64,000 nucleotides of DNA. Source: Escherichia coli (lineage in GTDB: Bacteria > Pseudomonadota > Gammaproteobacteria > Enterobacterales > Enterobacteriaceae). The notes below the pieces were generated by a model, which worked only from the letters and a program-made list of their open reading frames with translations, had not been told where the DNA came from and did no database searches. Positions within the stretch are counted from its first letter, which is position 1. Each line of letters starts with the position of its first letter. Location: NCBI RefSeq assembly GCF_030013595.1, contig NZ_CP122768.1; one strand, 5' to 3'. Position numbers and translations under genes: made by a program. Shown here in pieces: positions 25,925 through 41,580 of the stretch.

Positions 25925-26473
25925 ATGCAGATAACCGAAGCATTACTTGCAGAGCCGGGAGACATCCGGCGTTTTGTTCAGCAGGCGGTGGACCACTGGC
26001 CACATCTGTTGGCATTTCGTTTCACTCTCCGTTCGGCAGAAGGAAGCATCAACGGGCAACAGATTCAGGTATTCTGTACTTCTTTTTACCGACAGGTGCA
26101 CGAACGTATTACTGAGAGTAATCACATGCTCAGTCCATCATCGCCGGTGGTATTACGCTGGTTGCGGGAACAACATGGAGGGGCAACAATACGATGCCTG
26201 TTGCTGCTCAGCCAGGATCTTTTCTGCCATCCGCGAGCCAGTGCCACGGTTGATGAAGCATGTTCACAACTGGTAGATTTACTGCAACAGACCTGGCAGG
26301 TGATAAGCGCTGGCGGACAATGTCGGGTGGAAAAGCGTTTTCAGGTCGCCCGGGGTGATACATCTGGCCAGTATGTTGCGTTAAAAACAGTCGCATTGTC
26401 TCTGGGGTTACCGGTTGTGACCGCCATTACCCATCGTCCGGTACAGCGCTGTACACTGATTACAGCTCAGTGA
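25925..26473 (+). CDS. Hypothetical protein (182 aa), possibly another YagK/YfjJ-like paralog
   Basis: ORF track only. Confidence 0.4.
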   Translation: MQITEALLAEPGDIRRFVQQAVDHWPHLLAFRFTLRSAEGSINGQQIQVFCTSFYRQVHERITESNHMLSPSSPVVLRWLREQHGGATIRCLLLLSQDLFCHPRASATVDEACSQLVDLLQQTWQVISAGGQCRVEKRFQVARGDTSGQYVALKTVALSLGLPVVTAITHRPVQRCTLITAQ

Positions 26474-26491
26474 ATCAGCGCAGTTGTGTAG

Positions 26492-26836
26492 TCAACGAGG
26501 TTTTCTGGCTTTTTGTCGGTCATTCAGCACCATTAGCCGGGTCTCTGCCTCTTTCTGTTCCTGTGGAGTCACTTTCCCGCACGGCTGCCCCTTCAGGTCG
26601 TAACGGGCGCCGCCAGCCATTAACGCACGGTAATAGCGCGGAGACTGCACATAAGACGCTACTGCCGCGCGTAATGCACCTGCGCCAAACGCCAGTTCTC
26701 TGATGGCGATATCCTGTATCAGGTCGTTAGGTATCTCAACTTTAAGCGGTTGGATTTTTTCCCGGTTGAATAACTCAGGCCAGTGTTCCACAAGACGATT
26801 AATACGCTTACGGTTTTTACGCTGGCGTTTTGTCAT
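26492..26836 (-). CDS. FinO/ProQ-domain RNA-binding protein (114 aa)
   Basis: Aligns to the ProQ N-terminal FinO domain: LVEHWPELF...PLKVEI and LRAAVASYVQSPRYYRALMAGGARYDLKGQPCGKV versus ProQ [35 protein letters not shown]. Confidence 0.8.
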   Translation of the reverse strand: MTKRQRKNRKRINRLVEHWPELFNREKIQPLKVEIPNDLIQDIAIRELAFGAGALRAAVASYVQSPRYYRALMAGGARYDLKGQPCGKVTPQEQKEAETRLMVLNDRQKARKPR

Positions 26837-27851
26837 ATGCCGCCACGGTGTTTTTTCAGCAGAGCAGGGCTCTGTTTATCGTTCAACTGTGGTATCCGTT
26901 CCCTGGCCTTCACGTTGTGTGCAGTGTTCGTTTTATCCTGCAGCGGCGTTGCCGGTGATTTACTGAAAATGCCCTGTGGTTTACGGTTAATGGTCAGCGT
27001 TACCATCAGTATTGTTACCTCATGCTGTCAATGGAAGTAGTACCCCATCCAGAGCCTTGGCGACCCCGGGGCTGAAAACGAAACAATAACCCGCGCGCAG
27101 TGCGAGGAGCCCGGGCGTGAAGCAATCAGCAGGTAATATTAATGACAAGACCAGCAGGTTCTTTAGACAAACGAACAATATCAGCAAATACGACAGTTCC
27201 CGGAGAGGTAAAAAGTTTTTTACTTGCACAATTCTTAAAAAAATGGAGATGAACAAAAATGGGGCGACATACCTGGAAGGTTTCACCTCAGACAGAGAGC
27301 CAGGAACAAAAACAGTGTGCCGGAGCAAAGGACCGGGAGCTTACCGGCAATTCAACAGCGGCAGAATAATCTTTATGCCATGTATACTCCGGATGTTCAC
27401 TTATCAGCGGTCGTGGCTGAACATGGTTGTGCAGGTGAATATAATCCTGGTGAAAATGCCTTCTGACCGTTAAGCAGGTTATTGTGAACAGGAAAAAGAG
27501 AAGAACACGACCACGCCGTACGATGCCGCAACACTTTGAGTGGCACGTATGCTGGTGATATCGATAATGTTCTGTCATGGGGAGCGCAGCCCGTCCCCGT
27601 ACAACATGAACTGACCGACGTGTTTTGATAATCCGGAAATTGCGGATAAAACCTGCACAGAGTTGTTTCATCTGGTGGATATGACGGTGACGGATGGCGA
27701 TGAAATCATGCAGTATCGCCGTTAAAAACAGTTGTTCAGTCTTTGTCTTTTATGTTACCCGTTGTCAACGCTAGGGTTATTGGCAAAATCCGTTGGTAAT
27801 GGACGAGTGAATCATCTGTGCTTCCGTTGATTTTTATGGACTGATAAAGTT

Positions 27852-28511
27852 TTGTCAGATGAATTTTTATACGGAATTCTTTTCAGTATGCGTACACGAA
27901 TTGATTATCTGGCGGATAAATACTGTTTTACAGAACGGAACGAATCGCCCCGTCTTCGCCTGCAGTGGCAGGATGTTCTGGAGGAGTGCCGGCAGACAGA
28001 GGCCGGGCCAGAAGAACGGTTGCGTATTGCACTGCTGAATGTGGATTACGTCACCAGTTTTGAACTGCCTTTTCGCTTGCTGCTTACCCGGACACCGCAA
28101 TTGATTGCCGCGCTGCGTGAAGAATGGGGCATCAGCCAGAAAAATGTGGTGTTTAACGATAAACGGTTTGGCTGCGTGTACAGCCTGAAGGCCAGCCTTT
28201 CTGGTGTGCCGGATACATTCCGGTATCATCTGTCTCACCGTATTCGTCGCGTGGTTGGGAATGAAAACACATCATCGCCATATCAGCAGGTTGCCCGGAA
28301 AGTGAAAGCGCCCCGTGAACGGCTGAAGTATGCACTGGAGGCGGGTTTACTGGTGACTGCACTGGACGGCCTGTTCTGGTTTGGCAGTCAGCGTATTGCG
28401 GCTGATGTTCTGAGGCGGAGAAAGGCCGGAATGCCGGTGGTGACCACGACCGTGGAGGTGCACGATAACCTGACAGGAACAACCCGCAAAGTACCGGCAT
28501 ACCATCTCTGA
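27852..28511 (+). CDS. Hypothetical protein (219 aa)
   Basis: ORF track; no recognised family. Confidence 0.45.
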   Translation: MSDEFLYGILFSMRTRIDYLADKYCFTERNESPRLRLQWQDVLEECRQTEAGPEERLRIALLNVDYVTSFELPFRLLLTRTPQLIAALREEWGISQKNVVFNDKRFGCVYSLKASLSGVPDTFRYHLSHRIRRVVGNENTSSPYQQVARKVKAPRERLKYALEAGLLVTALDGLFWFGSQRIAADVLRRRKAGMPVVTTTVEVHDNLTGTTRKVPAYHL

Positions 28512-28559: not shown

Positions 28560-30266
28560 TGAATCGATCGCAGTTTGGCATTCGAATCGATCATGATTTG
28601 GCGGTGTTTTTCAAGGTAGTTGTCGCTTTTTGTAATAAAATTACGTTATGCAGCCTCTTTTTCTGGATTCAGGTAGACTTCTGATATGTAGTTCCAGTTA
28701 CGTAGATACTTGCCCCAACGTTCAGGATGTTGCTCGCGAGCTAGCTGGTATACCGCTTTTCAGGCTGCCAGTATTTTCATGTCATTACCTTGATGACGCT
28801 CGGCTGGCGTGACGTATTTGATCCCGCTGTGCTTATGTTCAAAGTTGTACCAGTTTACAAAACTGGTTTACCCATACTCTGGCATCATCAATAGTGCGAA
28901 AACCGTTCTCAGGCCACCAGGGACAATATTTGAGAGTCCGGAACAAAGATTCTGAGTAAGGATTATCATTACTGACTCTTGGCCGGGAATAAGAACTTAG
29001 CACACCAAGCGCATACATTTTCGCCAACAACGTGTCACTGTGCATGGGACCACCGTTATCAGAATGGAGTACCAGATTGTTGGATGAACATTTTTCATTC
29101 CATACTGCACGCTGGAGTAGTTCTGCTGCATGTTTTCCAGATTCGCTGGCAAATACCTCAGCAGCAATAATTTTGCGACTGTAAATATCGACGATCATAT
29201 AGAGGTAAAAATGCTGGCCTCTGACCCAGGACGGCAAATAGCTGATGTCCCAACTCCAGACTTGATTCGGTGCAACGGCCCTGAGTACATCAGGCCAGTT
29301 TATACTGGCATTCACGGGATCGTTTCTTCAACTGCTTGGCTGATTTCAGTACACGATAAAAACTTGATTCAGAAGCAATATAAATACCTCTGTCTGCCAG
29401 AGTTGGTACGATCACATTTGGAGGCAAGGATGCAAACTCTGGAGAGTTGCACAACTCCAGTATTCGCAATCTTTCCGCTTCTGACAGCTTATTTCGGGGA
29501 GAGCTGTTTACAGTATCGGATCTTCGGTCCGTGGTGATGATGTTGCCATTAGTCCAGCGCTGAAGTGTCCGAATAGAAATACCGATACACCTACAAGCCT
29601 GACCTTTCCGGGCGCCGTTGGCGACGGCCTCACGGACAAGAGAAATAATTTTATGCCGCTCCAGGAGAGGGGGCAGTCTTCCTCGCTGTTGTCCCAGAGG
29701 GCATTGAACTTTTCCCTTAATATAAGCAGGGCCGCAGCTTCCGCCAGAGCTTTATCTTTGCGCTTAAGCTCTTTCTCCAGTTCTCGTAACTTATTTTTTG
29801 CGTCACGCAATGCCCTGTCTGTTCGAATATTTTCCGTCAATTTTTTTCATGCGCCTGAATTGAGATAGCCCGCCATTCTTTAACCTGTTCAACAAACAAT
29901 CCCATGCGTCGGCAATAATCGGCAAGCTCCATTTCTGACAGTGTCAACGACGGATGAAAAGTGATCCACTATTGCACCGTTCGTGACAGACAGCGTAGCC
30001 GTCTCAAGAACAACTGAGAATCGACGCTCCGGTGTCCAGTCTTCAACATCAACGGAGGTAATCTTTTCATTTTCAGGTAAAAGTCCTTGCTCCACTAACT
30101 CACATCTCCATTTTGATACAACTGAGGCACTGATCTTCAGCTTCCGGGCTATCTGACGGTGTGACCAACAGTATGGTGGCAAAAGCCATATCAGTCCTTT
30201 TTCTTTGAGCTCATTTGGTATTGGTTGTCCTGGCATTGTTATCTCCTTAAAAAATTGAGGCGACAA
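28560..30266 (-). mobile_element. IS3-family insertion sequence remnant (frameshifted orfA, degenerate orfB)
   Basis: HTH fragment 29889..30266, leucine-zipper orfA part 29508..29840 (RELEKELKRKDKALAEAAALL), orfB fragment 28839..29315 with integrase-core residues; multiple frame breaks. Confidence 0.65.
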
Positions 30267-30305
30267 CTATGCTGACACAGGGGGGTTATTGAGTGATCTC
30301 CTTTC

Positions 30306-31021
30306 ATGAAAATACGCAGTATCAACCACACAGAGGATTATGTAATGACCAAAAATCATTCATTTTTAGAACAACAGATAGCTACATTTGGTGCAGCACT
30401 AAATGGGGGAAATCAACCGCAATCTGAGTACATAGAAGCCTTCTCAAAATCATTTAAAGGACTAGAAACACAAATTAATATTTGGGAAACCTTTATTGTC
30501 AATAGCACAAATGTTAATCAAGACGACGCAATGCTTTTTCCTTAACCATATCAGAGCAATATCTACACTACACCCATAAATCAACCGAAATAGAACAGCT
30601 CCGCTACTTCTACATAGCACAAAAAATTGCAGACTTGTTCTGGCTGAACAACGTTGCACATAGAGGTAAAAACTCTGAAGGCTACCCAGGTCATTTTGGT
30701 TGTCGTGTAAGGCAAAGAAACAAAAAACTCGAAATTTTCTGGGTTTACAACGAGTTTAAACCTAAAAAGAATTCTGACAAATACCAGGTGATCAGCCATT
30801 ACCTCCCCCGTGAGGGCAATTATCGCTATTCACAAAGCACCTTTACCCGAGCACAAGATTGGGAAAAATCGGTGATTACTGCTGTTGAAGATGCTTTCTC
30901 AATAATCCGCAGAGCCAACTCAAATCTAATGCGGGTTAGACAACTGTGCCGTTGGAATGACACCAATCTATTCAAAATGACAGGCGATATCGACGATTTT
31001 AAGATGGATAATCCTTTATAG
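30306..31021 (+). pseudogene. Hypothetical gene in two frames (30306..30545 and 30635..31021); possibly disrupted
   Basis: Two adjacent same-strand track ORFs in different frames; no family recognised. Confidence 0.3.
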
Positions 31022-31078
31022 TTATGATCTTACAACACAGCCCTCAACTCATTAGAGATCAGGGCTGTACTATATCGG

Positions 31079-32128
31079 CTATTTATCTTTTTTTAGTATG
31101 GCCTTGAGGGCTGCGATATTGGCCCGTGCGCCTTCGGCTTCTTTTAAACGACGGCGCTGCTGGGCAAAGCGGTCAAACTCCAATTTCGCTTTGTCATCAG
31201 CGTCTTTCTTGGAGATTTTTCCTGCACCGTTTAATACATCTCTATCGTTAAAACTCAAGAACTGGTCAAGCTTATCGGCCCAGTCCTGTAAAAATACCTG
31301 CTTGCGACGCAGTGCTTGGTCTTCAGCAAAGTCGAGCCACATATTGACGATGCGATTAAGCTCTTTGATTTCGTCTTCACGCAAATAGTTCTTGGCAACA
31401 GTAACGTCTGTCTTGCGCACTTCATCGCCTTTATAGCTGGTTAAGCCCATATCCGGCTTACTGGCATCCACACGGCTGGCGATAAGCTCAGCAGCCGTCA
31501 TATGCGTACAAGCATAATGCAGCTTATTCTGAATGGTTTGGAAGAAGCGGTTGGTCTCTTGGTTAGATGGCTCGTAATCAGCAGCCATGGTAAAGATTTC
31601 TTTGACTCGCAGATAAACGCGACGCTCACTAGCTCGGATATCACGAATGCGTTCCAGCATTTCATCAAAGTAATCTGGCACAGCAGAATGGCCAATGGGC
31701 GGATTTTTCAGGCGCTCGTCATCCATGACGAATCCTTTGATTAGGTATTCTTGCAACATTCTGGTTGCCCATTGGCGGAACTGGGTGCCACGTGTTGAGC
31801 GAACTCGGTATCCTACTGCAAGAATAACCGGAAGACTGTAGTGACGAATGCTTCGCTTTACTTCTCTGCCACCTTCCAGTTGAACTTGTAAGTAATCCTT
31901 ACAAGTTGAAATTTGCTCAAGCTCTTCTTCAGAATAGACAGCTTTTACGTGTTGGGTGATTGCTTGAGAGCTAACTTGATAAAGCTCTGCCATTGCAGCC
32001 TGAGAAAGCCACAAGGTGTCAGACTCAAAACGACACTCAACGCGGGTTTGACCATCAGCACTGGTGAAAAGAACAAACTCACCTTGAGGAGCTTGTGGGA
32101 TGTTATCGGCCATTGAATCAACCTTCAT
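31079..32128 (-). CDS. rhuM: RhuM-family protein (349 aa)
   Basis: Characteristic RhuM N-terminus (FVLFTSADGQTRVECRFESDTLWLSQAAMAELYQVS); directly downstream of the hsd operon. Confidence 0.85.
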   Translation of the reverse strand: MKVDSMADNIPQAPQGEFVLFTSADGQTRVECRFESDTLWLSQAAMAELYQVSSQAITQHVKAVYSEEELEQISTCKDYLQVQLEGGREVKRSIRHYSLPVILAVGYRVRSTRGTQFRQWATRMLQEYLIKGFVMDDERLKNPPIGHSAVPDYFDEMLERIRDIRASERRVYLRVKEIFTMAADYEPSNQETNRFFQTIQNKLHYACTHMTAAELIASRVDASKPDMGLTSYKGDEVRKTDVTVAKNYLREDEIKELNRIVNMWLDFAEDQALRRKQVFLQDWADKLDQFLSFNDRDVLNGAGKISKKDADDKAKLEFDRFAQQRRRLKEAEGARANIAALKAILKKDK

Positions 32129-32148
32129 ATGTTACTGATAATGGGCTA

Positions 32149-32991
32149 TTATTTATCCATAGCGGTTACAGAGTTAGCGAGCCTTTTTTCTTTGCCAAAC
32201 GGGGTCGTATAGAAGCGTTGTTCAATGCCATAAAGCAGTAACTTCAACTCATCGTCATTAGATATTTCAAACTTCTGATTTTCTTTATCGAATTTCAGCT
32301 TCTGTTCACCGCAGTAACCGTCGATATAATCAAGCATGTTAGCTTTATCGTCAGCAGACATCGCATCAAGTGTTGCCATAGCAAGGCCAATACGTTTTCT
32401 ATTAGGTTTTGAGACGCTATCTACGTTGTAGTCATTACCCAACTCTATAAACTGTGCATCTAAAAACTGCTCAACTTCTTCTTTTGTTGCTTCCTTGTAC
32501 AACTCATCGATACCTTTAAAAATGCTCGAGATCGTTGCCAGATTTTTGAATATCAAGGTATCGGCCACTTTGAAGTACACTGCATCAGGTAAGGCGTTTA
32601 TTACTAAACGTGTTTGGCTCTTCTCAATTTCTGCGGCTTCACCAAAAACAAGCGTTTTGCGTTTTACGAATAGGCTTGGAGTGATTTTTTGAAAGTAAAA
32701 ATCATTACCTTGAATTGCAAATAAGTAGGCGATCTTGGCGAAGTTATCTTTGGTTAAGTCATCGTAGTCTTTTGAATCATAGTCTTTTTTTAGCAGTTCA
32801 ATACAAAACTCTTTTTGACTAAAGTCTTCAATTTTAAACCATGAGTCTTCGTCAAGGTTATGGTCTGGATTGTATGGAATACAGGCATTTAAGTCGATTG
32901 TGACGGTATCAAAAAGAGATTGATCAGAAACCAATTTGAAAATGCGTTTTTTTGCTCTAGTTTTTATATGTGCCAGTACATGGTCCATCAT
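32149..32991 (-). CDS. Soluble 280-aa protein translationally coupled to the upstream membrane protein (KwaB-like position; defence candidate)
   Basis: ORF track; start ATG overlaps the stop of the membrane gene (TAATG); no family recognised by eye. Confidence 0.5.
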   Translation of the reverse strand: MMDHVLAHIKTRAKKRIFKLVSDQSLFDTVTIDLNACIPYNPDHNLDEDSWFKIEDFSQKEFCIELLKKDYDSKDYDDLTKDNFAKIAYLFAIQGNDFYFQKITPSLFVKRKTLVFGEAAEIEKSQTRLVINALPDAVYFKVADTLIFKNLATISSIFKGIDELYKEATKEEVEQFLDAQFIELGNDYNVDSVSKPNRKRIGLAMATLDAMSADDKANMLDYIDGYCGEQKLKFDKENQKFEISNDDELKLLLYGIEQRFYTTPFGKEKRLANSVTAMDK

Positions 32992-33545
32992 TATCCTCGC
33001 TCGATAAATGTGTAATTATTGATTCGATAAGCCAATGATATTTCGATGTCATCTGGCTTCTTGTAGCGCTCTCGGCTAATAAGGAAAATGGCCGTTCCGT
33101 TTTTGGTTGTAATGTTATAAAACTCATAACCAAACAGTAAAAACAATGGGTTAAAGTAGAGTGCTTGCGATAAGAGAGTAAAAACAAACAAAACGCCATA
33201 AACAAACCACAATGTCTCCCAGTTACCAATGCTCAACGCCACGAAAAAGTAACCCAAATAACTTGGTAGGAAGCTGTTATTGGCATGCTCAATACTCGCT
33301 ACTTCACCCGCCTTAAAATCGTCTTTACCCAAATACTTACTCAGCCAAATACTCAATCCAGTCGATAAAACAGGGATAAGAAAATAGAGTAAATATGATA
33401 CTGCGTTCGGAAGTGCTGCTATCCAATCGAAGCAAGCGAAACCACCAAAGAAATATCCGAGTGAGTACCCTTTTTGTACCGCAAAGATAATCACTAGTAG
33501 TGATGTTGCATTGAACGTAAGTAAAACCCGAAACGCAGTATTCAT
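32991..33545 (-). CDS. Small 4-TM membrane protein translationally coupled to hsdR (KwaA-like architecture; defence candidate)
   Basis: About four hydrophobic helices (aa 7-25, 29-46, 49-70, 93-125); start ATG overlaps the hsdR stop. Confidence 0.55.
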   Translation of the reverse strand: MNTAFRVLLTFNATSLLVIIFAVQKGYSLGYFFGGFACFDWIAALPNAVSYLLYFLIPVLSTGLSIWLSKYLGKDDFKAGEVASIEHANNSFLPSYLGYFFVALSIGNWETLWFVYGVLFVFTLLSQALYFNPLFLLFGYEFYNITTKNGTAIFLISRERYKKPDDIEISLAYRINNYTFIERG

Positions 33546-36500
33546 TATTTCACCGCCGCCTGTTCTGCACCTTGCTTCATCATGTCAAAAATCAACTCAA
33601 CATAACTTGCCATAACTTGTGGGTCTTTGAGTAGCGTTCGGGCTATATCACCTTCTTTCAGCAGAGCCTGCACAACGGCTTGCTTCACCGCTTGCGGCAA
33701 GTCGCCTTTGAGGGCAATCGACTTGTCGTGCTTTTCTATCTGCTCAACCACAATTGGATTTTGGGTGACACGCGTAATAGTACCGTTGGCAAAGTTTCGG
33801 CGACCGGGTTCGTCGCCGACATCGCCAAACAGTTCGTTTAGGCGGCGAATGATATCGGCAAGAAATGCCTGTTCACGATCCGCAGGGTCGTTATAGTTGG
33901 GGCGGATAGGTTCAAGTACCTGATTAAACGCTTCTGGAAGCGGCTCTTTGTCGTATTTGATTTTGAATTTTTCTAGTACCAGTGCACTGAGATCGATGTT
34001 TTCTGGTGTTACCCCTTTCAATCGACGTGATAGCAAATGAGCAAACGCGGCAAAGTTTTCCAGTTCAGGATCACCAAACTCAATCAATTGCGCCATATAG
34101 CTATAGTGCTTCACAAATCGAGCTAAATCTGACTTAAAACGCATTAGTGCTTCGCGCTGCTTGGTGAAATCACTGCGCTGAGATTCTGCGTAGTTCGCCG
34201 CTTTTTCATCACCCGCAAGGTGCGCTTTGTTGTATTGCTGATCCCAATGGTTTGCAGCATCAACCAGCTCTTTGAGCTTAACGTTGAACACATCGGTAGG
34301 GCGTTGTGTGGCAGCTAGCAGTTTCTTGTGCGCGTGTGACTTTTTGTCAGGTGATTGGCCGAGAATCGATTTACCACGCGCTTGCTTAAACAACTCTAAA
34401 TCTTGATGGTTGTATATGTTCTGTTCATCCAAAATATCTTTGATGTCATAGATGACGTTCACATCTTGCACTTCATTAAGCTGCGCGCCTTTGTCGTACT
34501 TTTTGAACGCATTGAGAATGGTTTGTGGATCGTTAACAAAATCAATCACGAAGGTTGTGTCTTTGCCTGGATAGGTGCGGTTTAGGCGAGACAGCGTTTG
34601 CACCGCTTCTACATCGGATATTTTCTTATCCAAATACATGGCAACCAGTTTTGGTTGATTAAAGCCCGTTTGGAACTTGTTGGCGACTAACATGACGCGA
34701 TATTCGGTATTCTCAAACTCATGGCGCAGGTCAGCCCCGTGCGTGTCTGGGTTTAAGTTGTACTCGGTGTACTCTTTATCGAAATCAATTTCTAGCGGGT
34801 CTTGGCTGTCTTCATCACCCAAATCTTTGCCGGGGACTTTGCCCGAGAAGGCAACCAAGGCTTGGATACCTTCAATACCATGCTTTTTAATGTATTTATC
34901 AAAAGCAAGCTTGTATTTCACCGCCTGTGGCCTGCCCGATGTGACCACCATGGCTTTGGCTTCACCTTCCAGTAGGTGAGCGATATTGGCCTTGAAGTGC
35001 TTAATAATAAATTCGACTTTTTGGCTGACCGTGGTTGGGTGCAGTGACATCCAGCGCGCCAACGCGCGGCGAGCTTGTTTGCTGTCTACGCGCTTCTCAT
35101 CCAGATTGTTCTCACCAATTTTGTAGGCTGTATCGTAGTGGGTGTAATTCTCCAGCACATCAAGAATAAAACCCTCATCAATGGCCTGACGTTGGGTGTA
35201 GAGGTGGAACGATTCAGGAAGATTGTCATCTGACACTGGTTGGTTAGGGTCTTTCGGGCGGCCAAACAACATCTTGGTGCTGTGCTTGGGTGTTGCCGTA
35301 AAAGCAAAGTGCGAAACGTTCTTGGGCATGGCGCGCGCTTCTTGCACCTTAGTAAGAATGTCCTCAATGCTCATTTGCTCCAACTCTTGAGGGCTAAGGT
35401 TTAGAGTAAGCGCTGCGCGTAACCCTTTGGCTGTAGAGCCTGTTTGCGAGGTGTGTGCTTCATCGATGATCACCGCAAAGTTACTTTGTGCCAAAGATTG
35501 ATTGGTCAGAATCGCTTCTAACGCATATGGGAAGGTTTGAATCGTCACTACAATGATCGGCGTGCCAGTCAATAGCGCTTCAGTCAGCTGTTTTGATTTC
35601 GACTCGCTGCTCTTTTCGCGATCAATCGCCTTAATCACCCCATATTGATGATCCAGCTGTTGCACCGCATCTTGCAACTGCGAATCCAGCACGGTGCGGT
35701 CGGTCACAATGATCACTGATTTAAAGACCGCTTTACCATCGGTGCTGCGTAAACGAATCAAATCATGGGCCGTCCAGGCTATGGTAGAGGTTTTTCCCGA
35801 ACCGGCGCTGTGCTCACAAAGATACTGCATGCCTGCGCCGTTCTGGCGGGCATCATCAATCATCTTGTTGACTGCGGCTAACTGATGATAACGCGGAAAA
35901 ATCTGTGTTTCCTTACGCTCAACCTTGCCATTGCTATCGGCAACCACTTTGGTTTCGACATACACAAAGCTGTAGAAAATGCGTAGCCAATTATCTTTTT
36001 GGGCAATTTCTTGCCAAAAATAGCTGACCGGATACTCTCCATCTTCACCCGGCAAGTTGATGTGTACAGGCAAATCAGAGGTAGAACCATCATGGCCTTT
36101 ATTGAAGGGCAGAAAATAGGTATTTTCTCCCGCCAGTTTGGTCGCCATGGCGATTTCTGTATCAGACATGGCAAAATGTACCACTGCACCGCGTTTAAAG
36201 GTTAACAGCGGCTCTTTACGCTTGGTTTTTGGGTCAACGGGCAGACGATCCTCTTTGTACTGCGCAATCGCCGATTCTAGCGACTGGGTAAAATCGGTTT
36301 TTAGCTCGGCGGTGGCAACGGGTAGACCGTTGATAAAGAACACCAAGTCAATTTCCCACTCGCGAGTCGGGCAATATTTCAGTTGGCGCACCACGCGCAA
36401 AATGTTGTGCTCATAACGGGCTATACGCTCTTCATTGCGCGCATCTTCGGGTTTGCGTTGGCCCATGGCAATCGTGCCGCAACCTGCAATGGTAAAGCCT

Positions 36501-36781
36501 TTACGCAGCACATTAATGGTGCCACCTGTTTTACTGCCAGCTTTGTGGGAAGAGAGGGCTTTTTCCAAACGCTCCAACAGCACCTGCTCGGCATTCACAC
36601 CATGCAGTTTATTCAGTTTGTGCCAGGCATCTGGCTGGGTGGCCTTTACCCAATCCATGACATCTTGCGGGTAAAGGGCGCGTTGCTGGTCATAGTGGCA
36701 GGAATGGCCTTCTTTCCAGCCATTGTTCACCAACTGCTCGGTAATATATTGTTCAAAATGCACTTCATGATGTGCAGCCAT
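33545..36781 (-). CDS. hsdR: Type I restriction enzyme R subunit HsdR (1078 aa)
   Basis: SF2 helicase motifs (GSGKT Walker A, DEAH-like region); length and operon context. Confidence 0.95.
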   Translation of the reverse strand: MAAHHEVHFEQYITEQLVNNGWKEGHSCHYDQQRALYPQDVMDWVKATQPDAWHKLNKLHGVNAEQVLLERLEKALSSHKAGSKTGGTINVLRKGFTIAGCGTIAMGQRKPEDARNEERIARYEHNILRVVRQLKYCPTREWEIDLVFFINGLPVATAELKTDFTQSLESAIAQYKEDRLPVDPKTKRKEPLLTFKRGAVVHFAMSDTEIAMATKLAGENTYFLPFNKGHDGSTSDLPVHINLPGEDGEYPVSYFWQEIAQKDNWLRIFYSFVYVETKVVADSNGKVERKETQIFPRYHQLAAVNKMIDDARQNGAGMQYLCEHSAGSGKTSTIAWTAHDLIRLRSTDGKAVFKSVIIVTDRTVLDSQLQDAVQQLDHQYGVIKAIDREKSSESKSKQLTEALLTGTPIIVVTIQTFPYALEAILTNQSLAQSNFAVIIDEAHTSQTGSTAKGLRAALTLNLSPQELEQMSIEDILTKVQEARAMPKNVSHFAFTATPKHSTKMLFGRPKDPNQPVSDDNLPESFHLYTQRQAIDEGFILDVLENYTHYDTAYKIGENNLDEKRVDSKQARRALARWMSLHPTTVSQKVEFIIKHFKANIAHLLEGEAKAMVVTSGRPQAVKYKLAFDKYIKKHGIEGIQALVAFSGKVPGKDLGDEDSQDPLEIDFDKEYTEYNLNPDTHGADLRHEFENTEYRVMLVANKFQTGFNQPKLVAMYLDKKISDVEAVQTLSRLNRTYPGKDTTFVIDFVNDPQTILNAFKKYDKGAQLNEVQDVNVIYDIKDILDEQNIYNHQDLELFKQARGKSILGQSPDKKSHAHKKLLAATQRPTDVFNVKLKELVDAANHWDQQYNKAHLAGDEKAANYAESQRSDFTKQREALMRFKSDLARFVKHYSYMAQLIEFGDPELENFAAFAHLLSRRLKGVTPENIDLSALVLEKFKIKYDKEPLPEAFNQVLEPIRPNYNDPADREQAFLADIIRRLNELFGDVGDEPGRRNFANGTITRVTQNPIVVEQIEKHDKSIALKGDLPQAVKQAVVQALLKEGDIARTLLKDPQVMASYVELIFDMMKQGAEQAAVK

Positions 36782-38067
36782 TACACCGCCTCCCTGACGT
36801 CTATTTTTCCTGTGACAGCCGCGTTGATCAGCGATGTGCGGTGTTCTTTTAGAAGATCAATCGATTTATCAGTCTCTTGAATCAGTAAATCAATGTTTAT
36901 CGTTGCTGCACTCAAGTAATTCGTTATTGTCTTTTGCTCATCAATTGGTGGGATAGCAATACTTGTATTAGCTAGTGAAGGAATGCTCAGGTTGTAGTTA
37001 CCTACCGATGTTCTTGACTGAAATGTTAATGCTTGACGAACAGATAGTGAGTTCATCGCTTCCACTAAGAAGCTAGTATCCACTCCTTGCTTTGGTGTTA
37101 ACTTTATTAGGTACGACGCAAATAAATACTGCCCATTTGAATCAAAAAGCGCGCTTTGGCCGACCAGATTAGGGTTACCGTTAGTTCTGATGACTAAAAT
37201 GTCGCCTCTTGATAAAAGATAAGTTAAAGCATCAACATCACTGATATTTGCATATTTGAGATCTTCAAAATCAACATTGGTACTCTTGATGTTTGGTATC
37301 CTGAGAACAGGATAGCCAACATCAGACTGGTTACAGTCTTGAGAGGTTCCATACATAAAGTTGGAGCAAATATGCTTTATCTTTTTGACTTCCCAATGCT
37401 TCGGCACTTGCCCAATCCACTCGATGCCAGAGTCCTGCATCTCCACATTGGGATAGAGCCCCTTTGTGACCACATGGCTGATCAGTGCTTGGCGTTTTTC
37501 TTTGAGCAGCTTAATAAAGGTCTGCTTTTCCTCGATCAGACTGTCGATGCGCTGGGTTTCGCGATCAAGGAATGTGCTAACCTGCTTCTGTAATGAAATA
37601 TCAATCAGTGGAACAGGTATTTCTAAAAGATCACCAGCTGTTAGGTTCTGACGAACTCCTCCACCCAGTTTGTTATAAATATTGGTTAGGTATAGAGCAA
37701 AAAAGTACCAGTAATAGAACCTTGGGTAGATGCTATTTGAACTCGCTGAAACACGGATGTATGCAGGGCTCATTATTCCTCGTTCATGCACAATCCCCAC
37801 TCGGCTAGTCTTTATATTTTCAAGATCTATGAGCTTAAAAACTAAGTCATCTTTTTCAAAAATCTGATAAACAGAGTAATCAGAAGATTGAAGTCCTTGT
37901 AAATCGTCTAACGAGCGGTTTATGACACCTTTCATTGTTAGTGCAAGACGATTAGATTCTTTCATTCCTTGATTGATTTCTTTGCTACTCGTAAATAAAC
38001 GTTTAGCTGGTACTGAGTTCCATTTCGAGTCAGATACGAAAGCATCTACTATGTTGCCAGCATTCAT
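36781..38067 (-). CDS. hsdS: Type I restriction-modification specificity subunit HsdS (428 aa)
   Basis: Two-TRD architecture with conserved central and C-terminal repeats; coupled between hsdM and hsdR. Confidence 0.9.
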   Translation of the reverse strand: MNAGNIVDAFVSDSKWNSVPAKRLFTSSKEINQGMKESNRLALTMKGVINRSLDDLQGLQSSDYSVYQIFEKDDLVFKLIDLENIKTSRVGIVHERGIMSPAYIRVSASSNSIYPRFYYWYFFALYLTNIYNKLGGGVRQNLTAGDLLEIPVPLIDISLQKQVSTFLDRETQRIDSLIEEKQTFIKLLKEKRQALISHVVTKGLYPNVEMQDSGIEWIGQVPKHWEVKKIKHICSNFMYGTSQDCNQSDVGYPVLRIPNIKSTNVDFEDLKYANISDVDALTYLLSRGDILVIRTNGNPNLVGQSALFDSNGQYLFASYLIKLTPKQGVDTSFLVEAMNSLSVRQALTFQSRTSVGNYNLSIPSLANTSIAIPPIDEQKTITNYLSAATINIDLLIQETDKSIDLLKEHRTSLINAAVTGKIDVREAV

Positions 38068-40046
38068 TACGCCACCTCATTCAGCAGAGCCTGAATGCGC
38101 GCTTCACATGCTTTTAGCTCACGATCAATCACACTCAACTCGCGTGGTGGCACGTATTGGTAGAAATAGCGGTTAAAGTTAATTTCATAACCGACAATGC
38201 CCACTTCGCCGTCTTTTTCATCACGCACTGAGTGATCAATAAAGGCATCCGGTACATGTGGCAGCACCTCTTGTGCGAAGTAATCTTCAACGTCGCGGTC
38301 AAAAGGAATGCTTTCGGTGTCTTTGAGTTTAGGGTCGGCGATCACTTGGCCTTTTTCATCCAGTGCAGGCTCAAATTGCGGATCAATTTTTACAAAGTGC
38401 GCAGTTAAGGCCGTAGCCAGTGCTTTTGAGCACTTACCAAAGTCACCCTTATTGTTATTCTTCTTAACCGCCAAACGTGCCCATTCATAAGGCTGAAGGC
38501 CAAGGTTATCGGTGAGGTATTGTACCCATGCCGCTTGTTGCTCTGGTTTGAGTTTTTTAAACGTATCTTGCTGCACAAATGCAGCAATGCCCGCAGCGGT
38601 AATATCTAGTTTGGCACGCAGTGGACGCTGAATGGTGACTTTACGGTAGGCAAAATCAGTAGTCTGGAAGATCTTACAGTTGTCACTGGCTTCAAAGCCA
38701 TCGTACGCACGGACAATATCGTCAATCTGTTCATCACTCAGGTACTTGCGCTTATCGCCTTGCGATTTACGCATGGGAGTCCAAATATCTGCCAAGTTAA
38801 TCAGTTGCACCTGATTCTTGCGTCTTGGCTCTTTATGGTTAGTCAAAATCCAGATGTAGGTGCCAATGCCGGTGTTGAAGAACATATCGGTTGGCAGGGC
38901 AACAATCGCTTCGACTAAGTCTTGTTCTAGCAGCCAACGGCGGATTTCTGATGGGCCTGAGCCTGCATCGCCATTAAACAGTGGCGAGCCAGAAAGGACT
39001 ATACCCACTCGGCCACCACCATTTTCCGGCGTTTCCATTTTTGATACCAAGTGCAGTAAAAACAGCATTGAACCATCAGAAATACTCGGCAGGCCTGGCC
39101 CAAAGCGTCCGGCGTATTTGAGCTGTTTGTGCTCACGTTCTACTTCTTTCTTGGCTTTTTCCCACTTAATGCCAAATGGCGGGTTGGCAAGGCCGTAGTG
39201 AAACTTGTCGGCACGTAACTGATCGTCTGATAAGGTGTTGCCTTGCTTGATGTTATTGGCATCAAAACCGCGGATCATCATATTGGTCAGCGCCATGGCA
39301 TGGGTCGCGGGGTCGAGCTCTTGACCAAAAGGCACGACTTTAGCGCTGCTGCCCATTTCTTCAATTTGGCTAATGGCATCGGAAAGGAAACCGCCCGTGC
39401 CACAGGTTGGGTCATAGATGGTGCGGATCACACCCTTTTCACTAAAGATATCTTCATCCGCCGCCAGCACCAGTTTGGTGGCAAGACGCACGGCATCACG
39501 CGGGGTCATAAATTCCCCGGCCTTTTCATTAACCGAACTGGCGAACTTTAGAATCAGCTCTTCATAAGCATCTGATAATACGCGGTCAGACACTACATCA
39601 GGATGCAAGTCGAGGTTGGCAAAATGGTTTACCATGCGATACAGCAACTTGGCTTTTTCCAGATCTTCTATGGTTTGACCAAATTTAAACTCATCAAAGA
39701 TGGTACGAACGTTTTTGCTGAACTGGCTGATGTAGTGTTCTAGGTTGTCGCCGGTGTCTGACGCGCCTAAGGTTTCTAGGCTATATTCACTGGTGTTGTA
39801 AAAGGCGAATCCCGCAATTTCTGGCAACACTAAACCAAGGTCTATGCCGGATTGTTTTTCGGCCAGATAGAACTTACGAACTTCCTCACGGGTGGGTTCT
39901 AACACGCATTCAATACGACGCAGTAGCAAAAATGGCAGGATAATCCGCGCAAAATCGGTGTGTTTGAAATCACCCCATAAATCATCTGCCATACGCCAAA
40001 TAGCACTGGAGAGTTTGGCGCTTTGTTCTTTGTCTTGTAAGTTCAT
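38067..40046 (-). CDS. hsdM: Type I restriction-modification N6-adenine DNA methyltransferase HsdM (659 aa, long C-terminal extension)
   Basis: NPPFG catalytic motif (LANPPFGIKW), HsdM N-terminal domain; first gene of the coupled operon. Confidence 0.95.
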   Translation of the reverse strand: MNLQDKEQSAKLSSAIWRMADDLWGDFKHTDFARIILPFLLLRRIECVLEPTREEVRKFYLAEKQSGIDLGLVLPEIAGFAFYNTSEYSLETLGASDTGDNLEHYISQFSKNVRTIFDEFKFGQTIEDLEKAKLLYRMVNHFANLDLHPDVVSDRVLSDAYEELILKFASSVNEKAGEFMTPRDAVRLATKLVLAADEDIFSEKGVIRTIYDPTCGTGGFLSDAISQIEEMGSSAKVVPFGQELDPATHAMALTNMMIRGFDANNIKQGNTLSDDQLRADKFHYGLANPPFGIKWEKAKKEVEREHKQLKYAGRFGPGLPSISDGSMLFLLHLVSKMETPENGGGRVGIVLSGSPLFNGDAGSGPSEIRRWLLEQDLVEAIVALPTDMFFNTGIGTYIWILTNHKEPRRKNQVQLINLADIWTPMRKSQGDKRKYLSDEQIDDIVRAYDGFEASDNCKIFQTTDFAYRKVTIQRPLRAKLDITAAGIAAFVQQDTFKKLKPEQQAAWVQYLTDNLGLQPYEWARLAVKKNNNKGDFGKCSKALATALTAHFVKIDPQFEPALDEKGQVIADPKLKDTESIPFDRDVEDYFAQEVLPHVPDAFIDHSVRDEKDGEVGIVGYEINFNRYFYQYVPPRELSVIDRELKACEARIQALLNEVA

Positions 40047-40112
40047 TGATACTACCTAAATGAAGTTAAATCGTTAAAAAATCAGTGTATTGTTTGGTTA
40101 TTATTTTGCGTT

Positions 40113-40619
40113 CTAGCTAAAGATGGCTTGCCAACGGCAAAATGCAGAACGATGTCTGTCGGTCCATTGGGTGCAAATAACATAGGTTTTTTCATCTCGC
40201 TGGGCCACTTTAGTGGTGGAGTAGCGGTTTCGCTCTTTGGCATCTTTGGCTGCACTGCGAATGTCTTCTGGCCGTGATGATTTAGCCAGTTTGAGCACGG
40301 GGAATGACAACCCAAAAATGTTGCGACAATAGGTTAGCTGCGTGAGGTTTTCTATTTCACTCAGTGGTAGAGCATGTTCAACCAAGTCTTGGATAGCTTC
40401 GGTTATCTCTGCATTGCTGATATTGTGTTGCGTTTGTGCAACTTCCCGTGTCTCTACTTCATTTTCAAGAGCAACAGAAAACGGAAAACCTTTGGCTTGA
40501 ACGGATTTAGCTAAAAAGACGTTAATAGCCTGCTCAATAGGTAAGCCCAACTCAGCAAAGATACTCGTGGCTTTTTCAAGCAGTTGAGGGTCTATATTGG
40601 TTGCCTTCATATGACTCAC
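40113..40619 (-). CDS. RelB/DinJ-like antitoxin-fold domain fused to an unknown C-terminal domain (168 aa)
   Basis: N-terminus LLEKATSIFAELGLPIEQAINVFLAKSV resembles DinJ/RelB; no adjacent toxin ORF; sits just upstream of hsdM. Confidence 0.5.
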   Translation of the reverse strand: MSHMKATNIDPQLLEKATSIFAELGLPIEQAINVFLAKSVQAKGFPFSVALENEVETREVAQTQHNISNAEITEAIQDLVEHALPLSEIENLTQLTYCRNIFGLSFPVLKLAKSSRPEDIRSAAKDAKERNRYSTTKVAQRDEKTYVICTQWTDRHRSAFCRWQAIFS

Positions 40620-40882
40620 AAAACCTACAAATTGTAATTTTTGTATCCTATAGGCTTTGCATTTTCACGGCTAGCAATAAAGTCAAAAAATGAGAAATAA
40701 TTGATCTTAAAAAACTTAAAACAGGCTAACAAATCAGCAGTTACACTTGTCATGCCCTGCTAGTGAGAGGATCTTATCACTTTCGATATTGATGCAATCA
40801 GGTGCCGCGATAGAGGAAGCTTGGTCAGGTAATGGTGCCAACTTACTGATTTAGTGTATGATGGTGATTTTAAGGTGCTTGC

Positions 40883-41158
40883 GTGGCTTCTGTTTCTATC
40901 AGCTGTCCCTCCTGTTCAGCTACTGACGGGGTGGTGCGTAACGGCAAAAGCACCGCCGGACATCAGCGCTATCTCTGCTCTCACTGCCGTAAAACATGGC
41001 AACTGCAGTTCACTTACACCGCTTCTCAACCCGGTACGCACCAGAAAATCATTGATATGGCCATGAATGGCGTTGGATGCCGGGCAACCGCCCGCATTAT
41101 GGGCGTTGGCCTCAACACGATTTTCCGCCATTTAAAAAACTCAGGCCGCAGTCGGTAA
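40883..41158 (+). CDS. insA: IS1 InsA
   Basis: [40 protein letters not shown]. Confidence 0.95.
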
Positions 41159-41580
41159 CCTCGCGCATACAGCCGGGCAGTGACGTCATCGTCTGCGCGG
41201 AAATGGACGAACAGTGGGGATACGTCGGGGCTAAATCGCGCCAGCGCTGGCTGTTTTACGCGTATGACAGGCTCCGGAAGACGGTTGTTGCGCACGTATT
41301 CGGTGAACGCACTATGGCGACGCTGGGGCGTCTTATGAGCCTGCTGTCACCCTTTGACGTGGTGATATGGATGACGGATGGCTGGCCGCTGTATGAATCA
41401 CGCCTGAAGGGAAAGCTGCACGTTATCAGCAAGCGTTACACTCAGCGAATTGAGCGGCATAACCTGAATCTGAGGCAGCACCTGGCACGGCTGGGACGGA
41501 AGTCGCTGTCGTTCTCAAAATCGGTGGAGCTGCATGACAAAGTCATCGGGCATTATCTGAACATAAAACACTATCAATAA
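41077..41580 (+). CDS. insB: IS1 InsB (expressed as InsAB' by frameshift)
   Basis: ORF track; IS1 transposase sequence. Confidence 0.85.

What the first reader, a model, noticed from the sequence alone, without database searches (positions are those of the whole stretch)
30306..31021. Possibly frameshifted unknown gene immediately upstream of rhuM
Two adjacent same-strand ORFs in different frames (79 and 128 aa) may be one disrupted gene lying between the IS3 remnant and rhuM. Its position next to a defence operon makes the intact ancestor worth identifying.
Basis: seen in the sequence. Interest (0 to 1): 0.25.

Follow-up and report, generated by a model that had tools for sequence, protein, structure and literature searches.

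The report
Frameshifted mobI gene, decayed mobilizable island
The two small ORFs are one broken gene, mobI, a helper that lets a genomic island hitch a ride on IncC plasmids. It was disabled by a one-base deletion and by an insertion sequence that removed its promoter and transfer origin, so this is an ordinary relic.

Summary
ORFs 30306-30545 and 30635-31021 are the two halves of one gene. A repaired reading aligns end to end, at 86-92% identity, with intact 223-249 aa MobI proteins (Pfam PF19456). These are the MobI_M mobilization factor of MGIVchHai6-type, IncC-mobilizable genomic islands.

The lesion is one missing T. The window has T5 at 30535-30539, while six intact relatives have T6. 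The true start is ATG 30345.

A second lesion lies upstream. Homology to intact islands begins exactly at 30319, where the end of a degenerate IS3-family element abuts. Only 26 bp of the roughly 500-bp region that carries the AcaCD-dependent promoter and oriT survive.

All 71 complete E. coli genomes with this locus share both lesions, so this is not a sequencing error.

Plesiomonas trmE islands carry the same cargo at 88-90% nucleotide identity: relB, hsdMSR, a Kiwa-like pair and rhuM. They also carry the intact int-xis-DUF927-alpA-oriT-mobI module. Window 30319-40756 is therefore the defence-cargo half of an immobilised island.

Two corrections: rhuM is convergent with the gene, not downstream of it, and the gene is not unknown. 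Interest is low.

The parts
28646..30318 (-). Degenerate IS3-family element. Its terminal inverted repeat ends at 30318 (reverse complement reads TGCGTATTTTCATGAAAGG...).
   Evidence: RefSeq annotates an 'IS3 family transposase, frameshifted; internal stop' at window 28646-30236. Thousands of E. coli places match only up to window 30318/30319. Homology to intact islands starts at 30319.
30319..30344 (+). The only surviving 26 bp of the mobI 5' leader, including the Shine-Dalgarno GAGGA at 30333-30337. The AcaCD-responsive promoter and oriT that lie further upstream in intact islands are missing.
   Evidence: Intergenic regions of six intact loci match the window only over their last 14-29 bp. 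Alignments to L002 and L006 start at 30319. The positions of the promoter and oriT come from PMC7449626.
30345..30545 (+). mobI pseudogene, N-terminal piece. It has native codons 1-65 (MTKNHSF...DDAMLF), then an out-of-frame Pro and TAA. RefSeq calls it a 66-aa hypothetical protein (WP_012311738.1).
   Evidence: The start matches the experimentally defined ATG118 start of the 225-aa MobI_M.
30535..30539 (+). T5 run, the site of the single-T deletion that shifts the frame by -1. Relatives have T6.
   Evidence: Window GCTTTTT-CCTTAACC versus GCTTTTTTCCTTAACC or GCTTTTTTCATTA in L002-L007. All 71 E. coli genomes align with an 81-nt footprint to an 82-nt T6 query.
30536..31021 (+). mobI pseudogene, C-terminal piece in frame 2 (residues ~65-225 and stop). 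It contains the whole PF19456 MobI domain, which begins about 30614, upstream of the first canonical start (TTG 30635).
   Evidence: Pfam MobI E 4e-30, profile 4-116 of 116. Colinear alignment. RefSeq calls it mobI with either an ATA start (30548, 157 aa) or a TTG start (30635, 128 aa).
31037..31068 (.). GC-rich hairpin between the convergent stops of mobI' and rhuM. It is probably a bidirectional terminator.
   Evidence: RNA fold -18.3 kcal/mol, z = -3.98, 0 of 200 shuffles as stable.
31079..32128 (-). rhuM (PF13310-type; PADLOC PDC-S05), intact. It is the conserved neighbour of mobI in this island family.
   Evidence: 87% amino-acid identity with the rhuM of the V. cholerae trmE island L002. 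PADLOC E 8e-167. Synteny in L002, L006 and L009-L011.
32149..33545 (-). Kiwa-like pair: KwaB-like (32149-32991, 280 aa) and KwaA-like membrane protein (32991-33545, 184 aa). Both are intact.
   Evidence: PADLOC KwaB 7e-14 and KwaA 9e-16. The same pair occupies the same position in Plesiomonas islands.
33545..40046 (-). Type I restriction-modification operon: hsdR 33545-36781, hsdS 36781-38067, hsdM 38067-40046. All three are intact.
   Evidence: ORFs. RefSeq annotation. 88-90% nucleotide identity to Plesiomonas trmE islands, except the hsdS target-recognition domains.
40113..40756 (-). RelB/DinJ-like gene (40113-40619) and the right-hand limit (40756) of homology to intact trmE islands. An IS1 follows at about 40883-41580.

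Best explanation
The 30306-31021 pair is a pseudogene of mobI_M. This gene encodes the island-borne mobilization factor of MGIVchHai6-type genomic islands, which are mobilized by IncA/IncC conjugative plasmids.

How the intact system works, from published experiments:
- The plasmid activator AcaCD switches on a promoter just upstream of mobI.
- The 225-aa MobI_M recognises the island's own oriT, which lies immediately upstream of that promoter.
- MobI_M acts as an adaptor that brings in the plasmid's MOBH relaxase TraI. The excised island is then nicked and transferred through the plasmid's type IV secretion system.

In this window two lesions break that machinery:
1. A single-T deletion (T6 to T5 at 30535-30539) shifts the frame after codon 65. 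This splits the gene into a 66-aa N-terminal peptide and a start-less C-terminal piece.
2. An IS3-family element ends 26 bp upstream of the start codon. Everything that normally lies beyond that point is absent from the window: the AcaCD promoter, oriT, alpA, the DUF927 gene, xis, int and the trmE junction.

What remains (30319-40756) is the cargo half of the island, apparently intact: rhuM, a Kiwa-like pair, a type I R-M system and a relB-like gene. It is now fixed inside a larger E. coli chromosomal island.

Shown here: gene identity, the exact lesion, the IS boundary, the loss of the upstream region, the synteny with intact islands, and fixation in 71 genomes.

Inferred: that neither fragment has mobilization activity. 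This rests on homolog experiments in which constructs starting at the equivalents of M63 and L98 failed to complement. Also inferred: that the IS-associated deletion removed the mobility module, rather than the module never having been present.
For: - Pfam MobI PF19456 hit on the second frame, E 4e-30, covering profile positions 4-116 of 116. The domain begins before any canonical start codon.
- The repaired reading is 86-92% identical, over 94-98% of its length, to intact 223-249 aa MobI proteins. The junction sequence DDAMLFSLTISEQYLHY is identical in P0004 and P0005.
- T5 in the window versus T6 in six independent intact loci.
- All 71 E. coli genomes carrying the locus have T5 and the same IS junction.
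- Homology to intact islands starts exactly at 30319. The roughly 500-bp intergenic region of intact islands has no counterpart anywhere in the window beyond its last 14-29 bp. There is no close relative of int, xis, DUF927 or alpA in the window; the only int and alpA hits are weak, 38-48% identical over about 50 aa at distant sites.
- Canonical architecture trmE-int-xis-DUF927-alpA-IG-mobI-rhuM-cargo is seen in L002, L006 and L009-L011.
- Plesiomonas islands share relB-hsdMSR-kwaAB-rhuM-mobI with the window at 88-90% nucleotide identity across 30517-40756.
- Published function, 225-aa start, promoter position and oriT position are in PMC7449626. Its +304 ATG and +409 TTG constructs failed to complement. 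They map to M63 and to L98, which is the window's TTG 30635 (my mapping).
- MobI binds the TraI C-terminal domain and self-associates (bioRxiv 10.1101/2025.04.21.649884).
- No sigma-70-like promoter was found between the IS end and the ATG.
Against: - The C-terminal frame keeps a complete PF19456 domain with no further stops, and only one substitution at an otherwise invariant column (L to Q in CRVRLR). Decay is therefore slight, and residual expression or activity cannot be excluded from sequence alone.
- RefSeq annotates the C-terminal piece as a functional mobI CDS rather than a pseudogene.
- The N-terminal third of the E. coli gene is of the 225-aa type, whereas the Plesiomonas islands with the best-matching cargo have a 197-aa MobI type. 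The exact ancestor is therefore a mosaic that I did not find intact.
- No attL or attR (trmE 3'-end repeat) survives in the window to prove former integration at trmE.
Confidence: 0.93

Rival explanations
1. These are two genuine, separately expressed genes: a 66-79 aa protein of unknown function plus a short but functional MobI of 128-157 aa. This is how RefSeq currently annotates the locus.
For: RefSeq gives two CDSs, neither flagged as a pseudogene. The whole Pfam MobI domain lies in the second frame. Plasmid-borne MobI_C proteins align only with the C-terminal two thirds of the repaired protein, residues 92-204.
Against: - Every relative outside E. coli encodes one continuous protein across the junction.
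- The domain starts upstream of the first ATG/GTG/TTG, so PGAP had to invoke an ATA start.
- Constructs of the close homolog starting at the positions equivalent to M63 and L98 did not restore mobilization (PMC7449626).
- No promoter-like site was found upstream and there is no cognate oriT in the window.
Confidence: 0.03
2. The split is bridged in vivo. A -1 ribosomal slip or transcriptional slippage on the T5 run yields some full-length MobI, as in a programmed frameshift.
For: The required shift is -1 and the frames overlap at a homopolymeric T run: CTT TTT CCT TAA, with the tRNA-Phe codon TTT able to re-pair at -1.
Against: - The site is not a canonical X XXY YYZ heptamer in the zero frame, and T5 is short for transcriptional slippage (read directly from the sequence).
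- The split is not conserved. All six intact relatives have T6 and a single ORF, which is the signature of a mutation rather than a programmed signal.
- Even if full-length protein were made, its oriT and the int/xis module are gone.
Confidence: 0.02
3. The frameshift is a sequencing or assembly error in a homopolymer, and the gene is really intact.
For: Homopolymer runs are a classic source of single-base indel errors.
Against: All 71 complete E. coli genomes from many laboratories carry the same T5 allele, and none has T6. The independent IS lesion is also shared by all 71.
Confidence: 0.01

Closest known systems
MobI_M of MGIVchHai6 (Vibrio cholerae HC-36A1) and related trmE-inserted, IncC-mobilizable genomic islands (Rivard et al. 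2020, mSphere, PMC7449626)
   Same: - Same protein family (PF19456), the same 225-aa form and the same start context.
- 86-92% identity to intact 223-249 aa island-borne MobI proteins.
- The same convergent rhuM neighbour and the same kind of cargo (type I R-M).
- Positions of the tested alternative starts (+304 ATG, +409 TTG) are conserved.

   Different: - The gene is frameshifted (T5 instead of T6).
- The AcaCD promoter, oriT, alpA, DUF927, xis, int and att sites are missing.
- The remnant sits inside a different E. coli chromosomal island instead of at trmE.
- I did not align directly with the MGIVchHai6 sequence itself, only with family members returned by the searches.
Plesiomonas shigelloides trmE islands (loci L009-L011), the closest intact counterpart of the whole block
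   Same: Same gene order, relB-hsdM-hsdS-hsdR-kwaA-kwaB-rhuM-mobI, at 88-90% nucleotide identity over window 30517-40756, with the same protein lengths.
   Different: - Their MobI is the 197-aa type, whose N-terminal third is not alignable at the DNA level with window 30319-30517.
- The hsdS target-recognition domains differ.
- They retain the full mobility module and the trmE junction.
MobI_C of IncA/IncC conjugative plasmids (for example pVCR94) and MobI of SXT/R391 ICEs
   Same: Same Pfam family. Same role as an oriT-recognition adaptor for a MOBH1 relaxase, with the gene sitting next to its oriT.
   Different: Only about 27-31% identical, over residues about 92-204 of the repaired protein. 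It is plasmid-borne and, as the paper reports, AcaCD-independent. There was no DNA-level match of this locus to any of 72,556 plasmids.

Membership tests
MobI protein family (Pfam PF19456) | Significant match to the MobI profile above the gathering score | tested here: met
   E 4e-30, 104.8 bits against a cutoff of 26.6, profile positions 4-116 of 116, on the frame-2 piece.
MobI protein family (Pfam PF19456) | A single uninterrupted reading frame encoding the protein | tested here: not met
   A one-T deletion at 30535-30539 splits the frame. Intact relatives have T6.
MGIVchHai6-type IncC-mobilizable genomic islands (group A, trmE) | Island-borne mobI_M of the 225-aa type | tested here: met
   The repaired reading is 86-92% identical to 223-249 aa island MobI proteins that lie in int-xis-DUF927-alpA-IG-mobI islands at trmE. 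It is present here only as a pseudogene.
MGIVchHai6-type IncC-mobilizable genomic islands (group A, trmE) | oriT in the intergenic region immediately upstream of mobI | tested here: not met
   Only 26 bp upstream of the ATG remain. Intergenic regions of six intact islands have no other match in the 64-kb window.
MGIVchHai6-type IncC-mobilizable genomic islands (group A, trmE) | AcaCD-responsive promoters upstream of mobI and of the 85-86-xis operon | tested here: not met
   The published P84 promoter lies within the 117 bp upstream of the start, and that DNA is replaced by the IS end at 30318. I did not scan with an AcaCD motif matrix. Absence is inferred from loss of the homologous DNA.
MGIVchHai6-type IncC-mobilizable genomic islands (group A, trmE) | int-xis-DUF927(86)-HTH(85) recombination module | tested here: not met
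   tblastn with the L002 proteins finds no xis or DUF927 homolog. The only int and alpA-like hits are weak (38-48% over about 50 aa) and lie elsewhere in the window.
MGIVchHai6-type IncC-mobilizable genomic islands (group A, trmE) | Integration at the 3' end of trmE, flanked by TTCTGTATYGGNAAGTAA-like repeats | tested here: not met
   No match to the repeat with up to 3 mismatches. There is no trmE in the window. In SMS-3-5 the surrounding island lies next to a tRNA-Leu gene.
MGIVchHai6-type IncC-mobilizable genomic islands (group A, trmE) | rhuM adjacent to mobI, and antiphage cargo such as type I R-M | tested here: met
   rhuM is convergent with mobI, and hsdRSM plus the Kiwa-like pair follow. 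This is the same order as in L009-L011 and matches the family description in PMC7449626.
MGIVchHai6-type IncC-mobilizable genomic islands (group A, trmE) | Mobilization by an IncC helper plasmid | not testable with these tools
   This needs mating assays. Sequence predicts no mobilization: there is no oriT, no int/xis, and mobI is broken.
Programmed -1 ribosomal frameshift genes | A conserved split-frame architecture with a slippery heptamer | tested here: not met
   Relatives are single ORFs with T6. The zero-frame codons CTT TTT CCT do not form an X XXY YYZ motif.

The most novel reading that the evidence does not exclude
The start-less C-terminal fragment still contains the complete MobI domain. 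It might be expressed at a low level, through a non-canonical start or read-through from the IS. It could then act as a decoy that binds the MobI-binding domain of the IncA/IncC relaxase TraI without delivering it to an oriT. That would dampen IncC plasmid transfer from the E. coli lineages that carry it, a fertility-inhibition role analogous to CtiC of SGI1. In that case the pseudogene would be an exapted anti-plasmid factor kept alongside the anti-phage cargo.
Probability: 0.03. Interest if true: 0.5.

Novelty: new member of a known kind. Interest (0 to 1): 0.18.

Why it matters
The practical value is modest.

- **Annotation.** RefSeq lists a 66-aa 'hypothetical protein' and a 128- or 157-aa 'MobI(A/C)' as two live genes in these E. 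coli genomes. They are one mobI_M pseudogene.
- **Origin of the defence block.** The adjacent rhuM, Kiwa-like pair, type I R-M system and relB-like gene are the cargo of an aquatic-type (Vibrio, Plesiomonas, Shewanella) IncC-mobilizable trmE island. That island landed in E. coli and lost its mobility half. It is an example of defence cargo being retained while the vehicle decays.
- **Mobility prediction.** IncC plasmids entering these strains should not mobilize this block.

None of this challenges current understanding of the family.

Tried and rejected
- **NCBIfam scan** of both ORFs and the fusion gave no MobI model, only a sub-threshold PRK13672 hit. The RefSeq name 'MobI(A/C)' could therefore not be reproduced from that library. 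Pfam settled the identity.
- **DNA search of 72,556 plasmids** with the gene found no match. The locus is not a recent plasmid fragment.
- **Search for the trmE attachment repeat** in the window found none.
- **Inverted-repeat search** for the other IS3 end gave nothing convincing. The left end of the IS remnant is not defined precisely.
- **Structure.** The AlphaFold2 model of the repaired protein has pLDDT 79.9 and pTM 0.71. It shows a long helix (59-106) spanning the frameshift point, a three-stranded sheet (116-154) and a long C-terminal helix. Foldseek against the PDB found no credible relative: best E 0.12, TM below 0.3. Structure therefore adds nothing on mechanism.
- **Relaxed-selection check.** There is only one window-specific change at a column invariant in 12 other homologs. 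That is too little to date the inactivation.
- **Literature search** on 'rhuM' plus 'mobI' was swamped by word-start matches and was not useful.
- **Rejected readings.** I considered a sequencing error, a programmed frameshift and two independent genes, and rejected all three (see the rival explanations).

Full report
**1. What is in the sequence**

The two ORFs exist as described. They are 30306-30545 (+, 79 aa, ATG) and 30635-31021 (+, 128 aa, TTG), in frames 0 and 2. The frame of the second ORF is already open from about 30520, so the two frames overlap around a run of five T's at 30535-30539.

To the left lies an IS3-family remnant on the minus strand. To the right, rhuM (31079-32128) is also on the minus strand. 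The pair therefore converges on rhuM tail-to-tail, with a stable hairpin between the two stop codons (31037-31068, dG -18.3 kcal/mol, z -3.98). 'Immediately upstream of rhuM' is thus positional only, not transcriptional.

**2. Identity of the gene**

- Pfam places a complete MobI domain (PF19456, E 4e-30, profile 4-116 of 116) in the second frame.
- The match begins at about window 30614, which is upstream of the first ATG/GTG/TTG of that frame. This already suggests that a start codon is missing.
- RefSeq copes by calling 'mobI, conjugative transfer protein MobI(A/C)' in two ways. In SMS-3-5 it uses an ATA start at 30548 (157 aa). In strain 2009C-3133 it uses the TTG start (128 aa).
- In both records RefSeq adds a separate 66-aa 'hypothetical protein' at 30345-30545. 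Neither CDS is flagged as a pseudogene.

**3. Test of the frameshift idea**

I joined the two frames at the T run and searched the 5.8-billion-protein collection. Intact single proteins came back:
- P0001 (249 aa, 91% identity, 98% coverage)
- P0002 (225 aa, 92%)
- P0003 (Vibrio cholerae, 249 aa, 87%)
- P0004 (223 aa)
- P0005 (225 aa)

The alignment is colinear through the junction. P0004 and P0005 read DDAMLFSLTISEQYLHYTHK, exactly as the repaired window does.

At the DNA level the window reads GCTTTTT-CCTTAACC. Six intact loci (L002-L007) read GCTTTTTTCC... or GCTTTTTTCA.... The lesion is therefore the loss of one T from a T6 run, giving the observed -1 frame change.

The conserved start is ATG 30345 (MTKNHSF...), preceded by GAGGA at 30333-30337. 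The longer 249-aa calls are over-extensions, because L003 and L004 have in-frame stops there.

**4. Not a sequencing error, and not programmed**

An 82-nt query carrying T6 matched 71 of 5,426 complete E. coli genomes. All matches were chromosomal, with an 81-nt footprint at 98.8% identity, and none was at 99% or above. The T5 allele is fixed wherever the locus occurs.

The split is absent from every relative outside E. coli. The zero-frame codons CTT TTT CCT are not a canonical slippery heptamer. A programmed frameshift is therefore unlikely.

**5. A second lesion**

Alignments of the window to intact islands begin exactly at 30319 (L002 and L006). Immediately to the left is the end of the IS. 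Thousands of unrelated E. coli places match the window only up to 30318/30319, and the reverse complement starts TGCGTATTTTC..., as IS3-family ends do.

The same IS|mobI junction is present in exactly the same 71 genomes.

The intergenic regions upstream of mobI in six intact islands are about 500 bp long and 72-90% identical to each other across the two island types. They match the window only over their last 14-29 bp.

tblastn with the int, xis, DUF927 and alpA proteins of L002 finds no close counterparts anywhere in the 64 kb. No sigma-70-like promoter was detected between the IS end and the ATG.

**6. What the gene does when intact (literature)**

Rivard et al. 2020 (PMC7449626) dissected MGIVchHai6, a trmE-inserted island mobilized by IncC plasmids. 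Their findings:
- ORF 84 encodes MobI_M, a 225-aa protein starting at ATG118.
- An AcaCD-activated promoter (P84) lies within the 117 bp upstream of that start.
- oriT lies in the intergenic region upstream of that, with a minimal 49-bp fragment.
- Deleting mobI_M lowers mobilization about 2,700-fold.
- Transfer also needs the plasmid's TraI, TraD and TraJ.
- Constructs starting at +304 (ATG) or +409 (TTG) did not complement.
- rhuM is usually adjacent to mobI_M, and most trmE-type islands carry type I R-M systems.

The published truncations therefore cover all of the C-terminal sequence the window can still encode, and both were inactive. This mapping is mine. It assumes colinearity, which the shared 225-aa length and the conserved ATG and TTG support.

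A 2026 preprint (10.1101/2025.04.21.649884) adds that the plasmid MobI self-associates and binds a C-terminal domain of TraI. This fits an adaptor role in oriT recognition.

**7. The wider element**

The 280-aa protein downstream of rhuM led to Plesiomonas shigelloides contigs (L009-L011). These show the complete island:
trmE | int - xis - DUF927 - alpA - IG - mobI - rhuM - 280 aa - 184 aa - hsdR - hsdS - hsdM - relB - ...

These contigs are 88-90% identical in DNA to window 30517-40756, apart from the hsdS target-recognition domains. Protein lengths match those in the window.

The 280-aa and 184-aa proteins hit PADLOC KwaB (7e-14) and KwaA (9e-16). rhuM hits PDC-S05.

Window 30319-40756 is therefore the cargo half of a trmE-type, MGIVchHai6-family island. 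All its defence genes appear intact, and it is bounded by the IS3 remnant on the left and an IS1 on the right.

The N-terminal third of the E. coli mobI is of the 225-aa (Vibrio-like) type, whereas the Plesiomonas islands carry a 197-aa type. The precise ancestor is thus a mosaic that I did not recover intact.

**8. Comparison and membership**

The gene belongs to the MobI family, but as a pseudogene. The block derives from an MGIVchHai6-type island, yet it no longer meets that family's functional definition. oriT, the AcaCD promoters, int/xis and the trmE att repeats all tested absent.

Plasmid MobI_C proteins are only 27-31% identical, and no plasmid carries this DNA.

The AlphaFold model of the repaired protein (pLDDT 79.9) places the frameshift inside a long helix (59-106). 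It has no credible PDB neighbour.

**9. Verdict**

The 'intact ancestor' is mobI_M. The finding is an ordinary pseudogene in a decayed mobile element.

Its value is in correcting the annotation and in explaining where the neighbouring defence operon came from. Interest is low (0.18). In novelty terms it is a new, degenerate member of a known kind.

The only non-trivial reading not excluded is that the domain-complete C-terminal fragment acts as a TraI decoy against IncC plasmids. I give that about 3%.

Noticed in passing
window 32149-33545 (-): Two overlapping genes between hsdR and rhuM are named 'hypothetical' in RefSeq, and 'ATP F0F1 synthase synthase' in other records. They match PADLOC KwaB (280 aa, E 7e-14) and KwaA (184 aa membrane protein, E 9e-16). 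This is a Kiwa-like pair embedded in the type I R-M/rhuM block. It has over 1,300 homologs, mostly in Vibrio, Shewanella, Aeromonas and Plesiomonas.
   Followed up: partly
window 36781-38067 (-), hsdS: Only the central conserved segment of about 180 bp (37390-37572) matches the Plesiomonas islands' hsdS. Both target-recognition domains differ, although hsdM and hsdR are 88-90% identical. This implies a swapped R-M specificity.
   Followed up: no
window 30345-31021; RefSeq records NC_010498.1 and NZ_CP013025.1: RefSeq annotates the same DNA inconsistently. mobI is 157 aa with an ATA start in SMS-3-5 and 128 aa with a TTG start in 2009C-3133. Each record also has a separate 66-aa hypothetical protein, and neither CDS is marked as a pseudogene.
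   Followed up: yes
window ~40883-64000: To the right of an IS1 lies a Tn21/Tn2411-like block with the mer operon, tni genes, IS1326, sul1, qacEdelta1, aadA1, intI1, tnpR/tnpA and catA1. It is 99.8-99.9% identical to an IS1-bounded unit that sits next to glmS in E. coli 042. In strain 2009C-3133 a related class 1 integron region abuts the same IS1/relB end. MGIVchHai6 itself also carries an integron and a mercury transposon. I did not test whether that parallel is more than coincidence.
   Followed up: partly
window 6841-6969 (-): A second, short rhuM-like fragment, 63% amino-acid identity over 51 residues to the V. cholerae island RhuM.
   Followed up: no
window 26388-27776, compared with L001 (SMS-3-5) 12029-17527: SMS-3-5 carries about 5.5 kb that the window lacks: a canonical Kiwa system (kwaA, with kwaB interrupted by ISVsa5) and IS1203. 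The island is otherwise 94-99% identical on both sides.
   Followed up: no
window 31037-31068: A stable hairpin between the convergent stops of mobI' and rhuM (dG -18.3 kcal/mol, z -3.98). It is probably a bidirectional terminator.
   Followed up: partly
window 27852-28511 (+): A 219-aa ORF just left of the IS3 remnant is annotated 'ECs1377 family protein' in RefSeq. It is unrelated to the mobI island, so the IS separates two different pieces of DNA.
   Followed up: no
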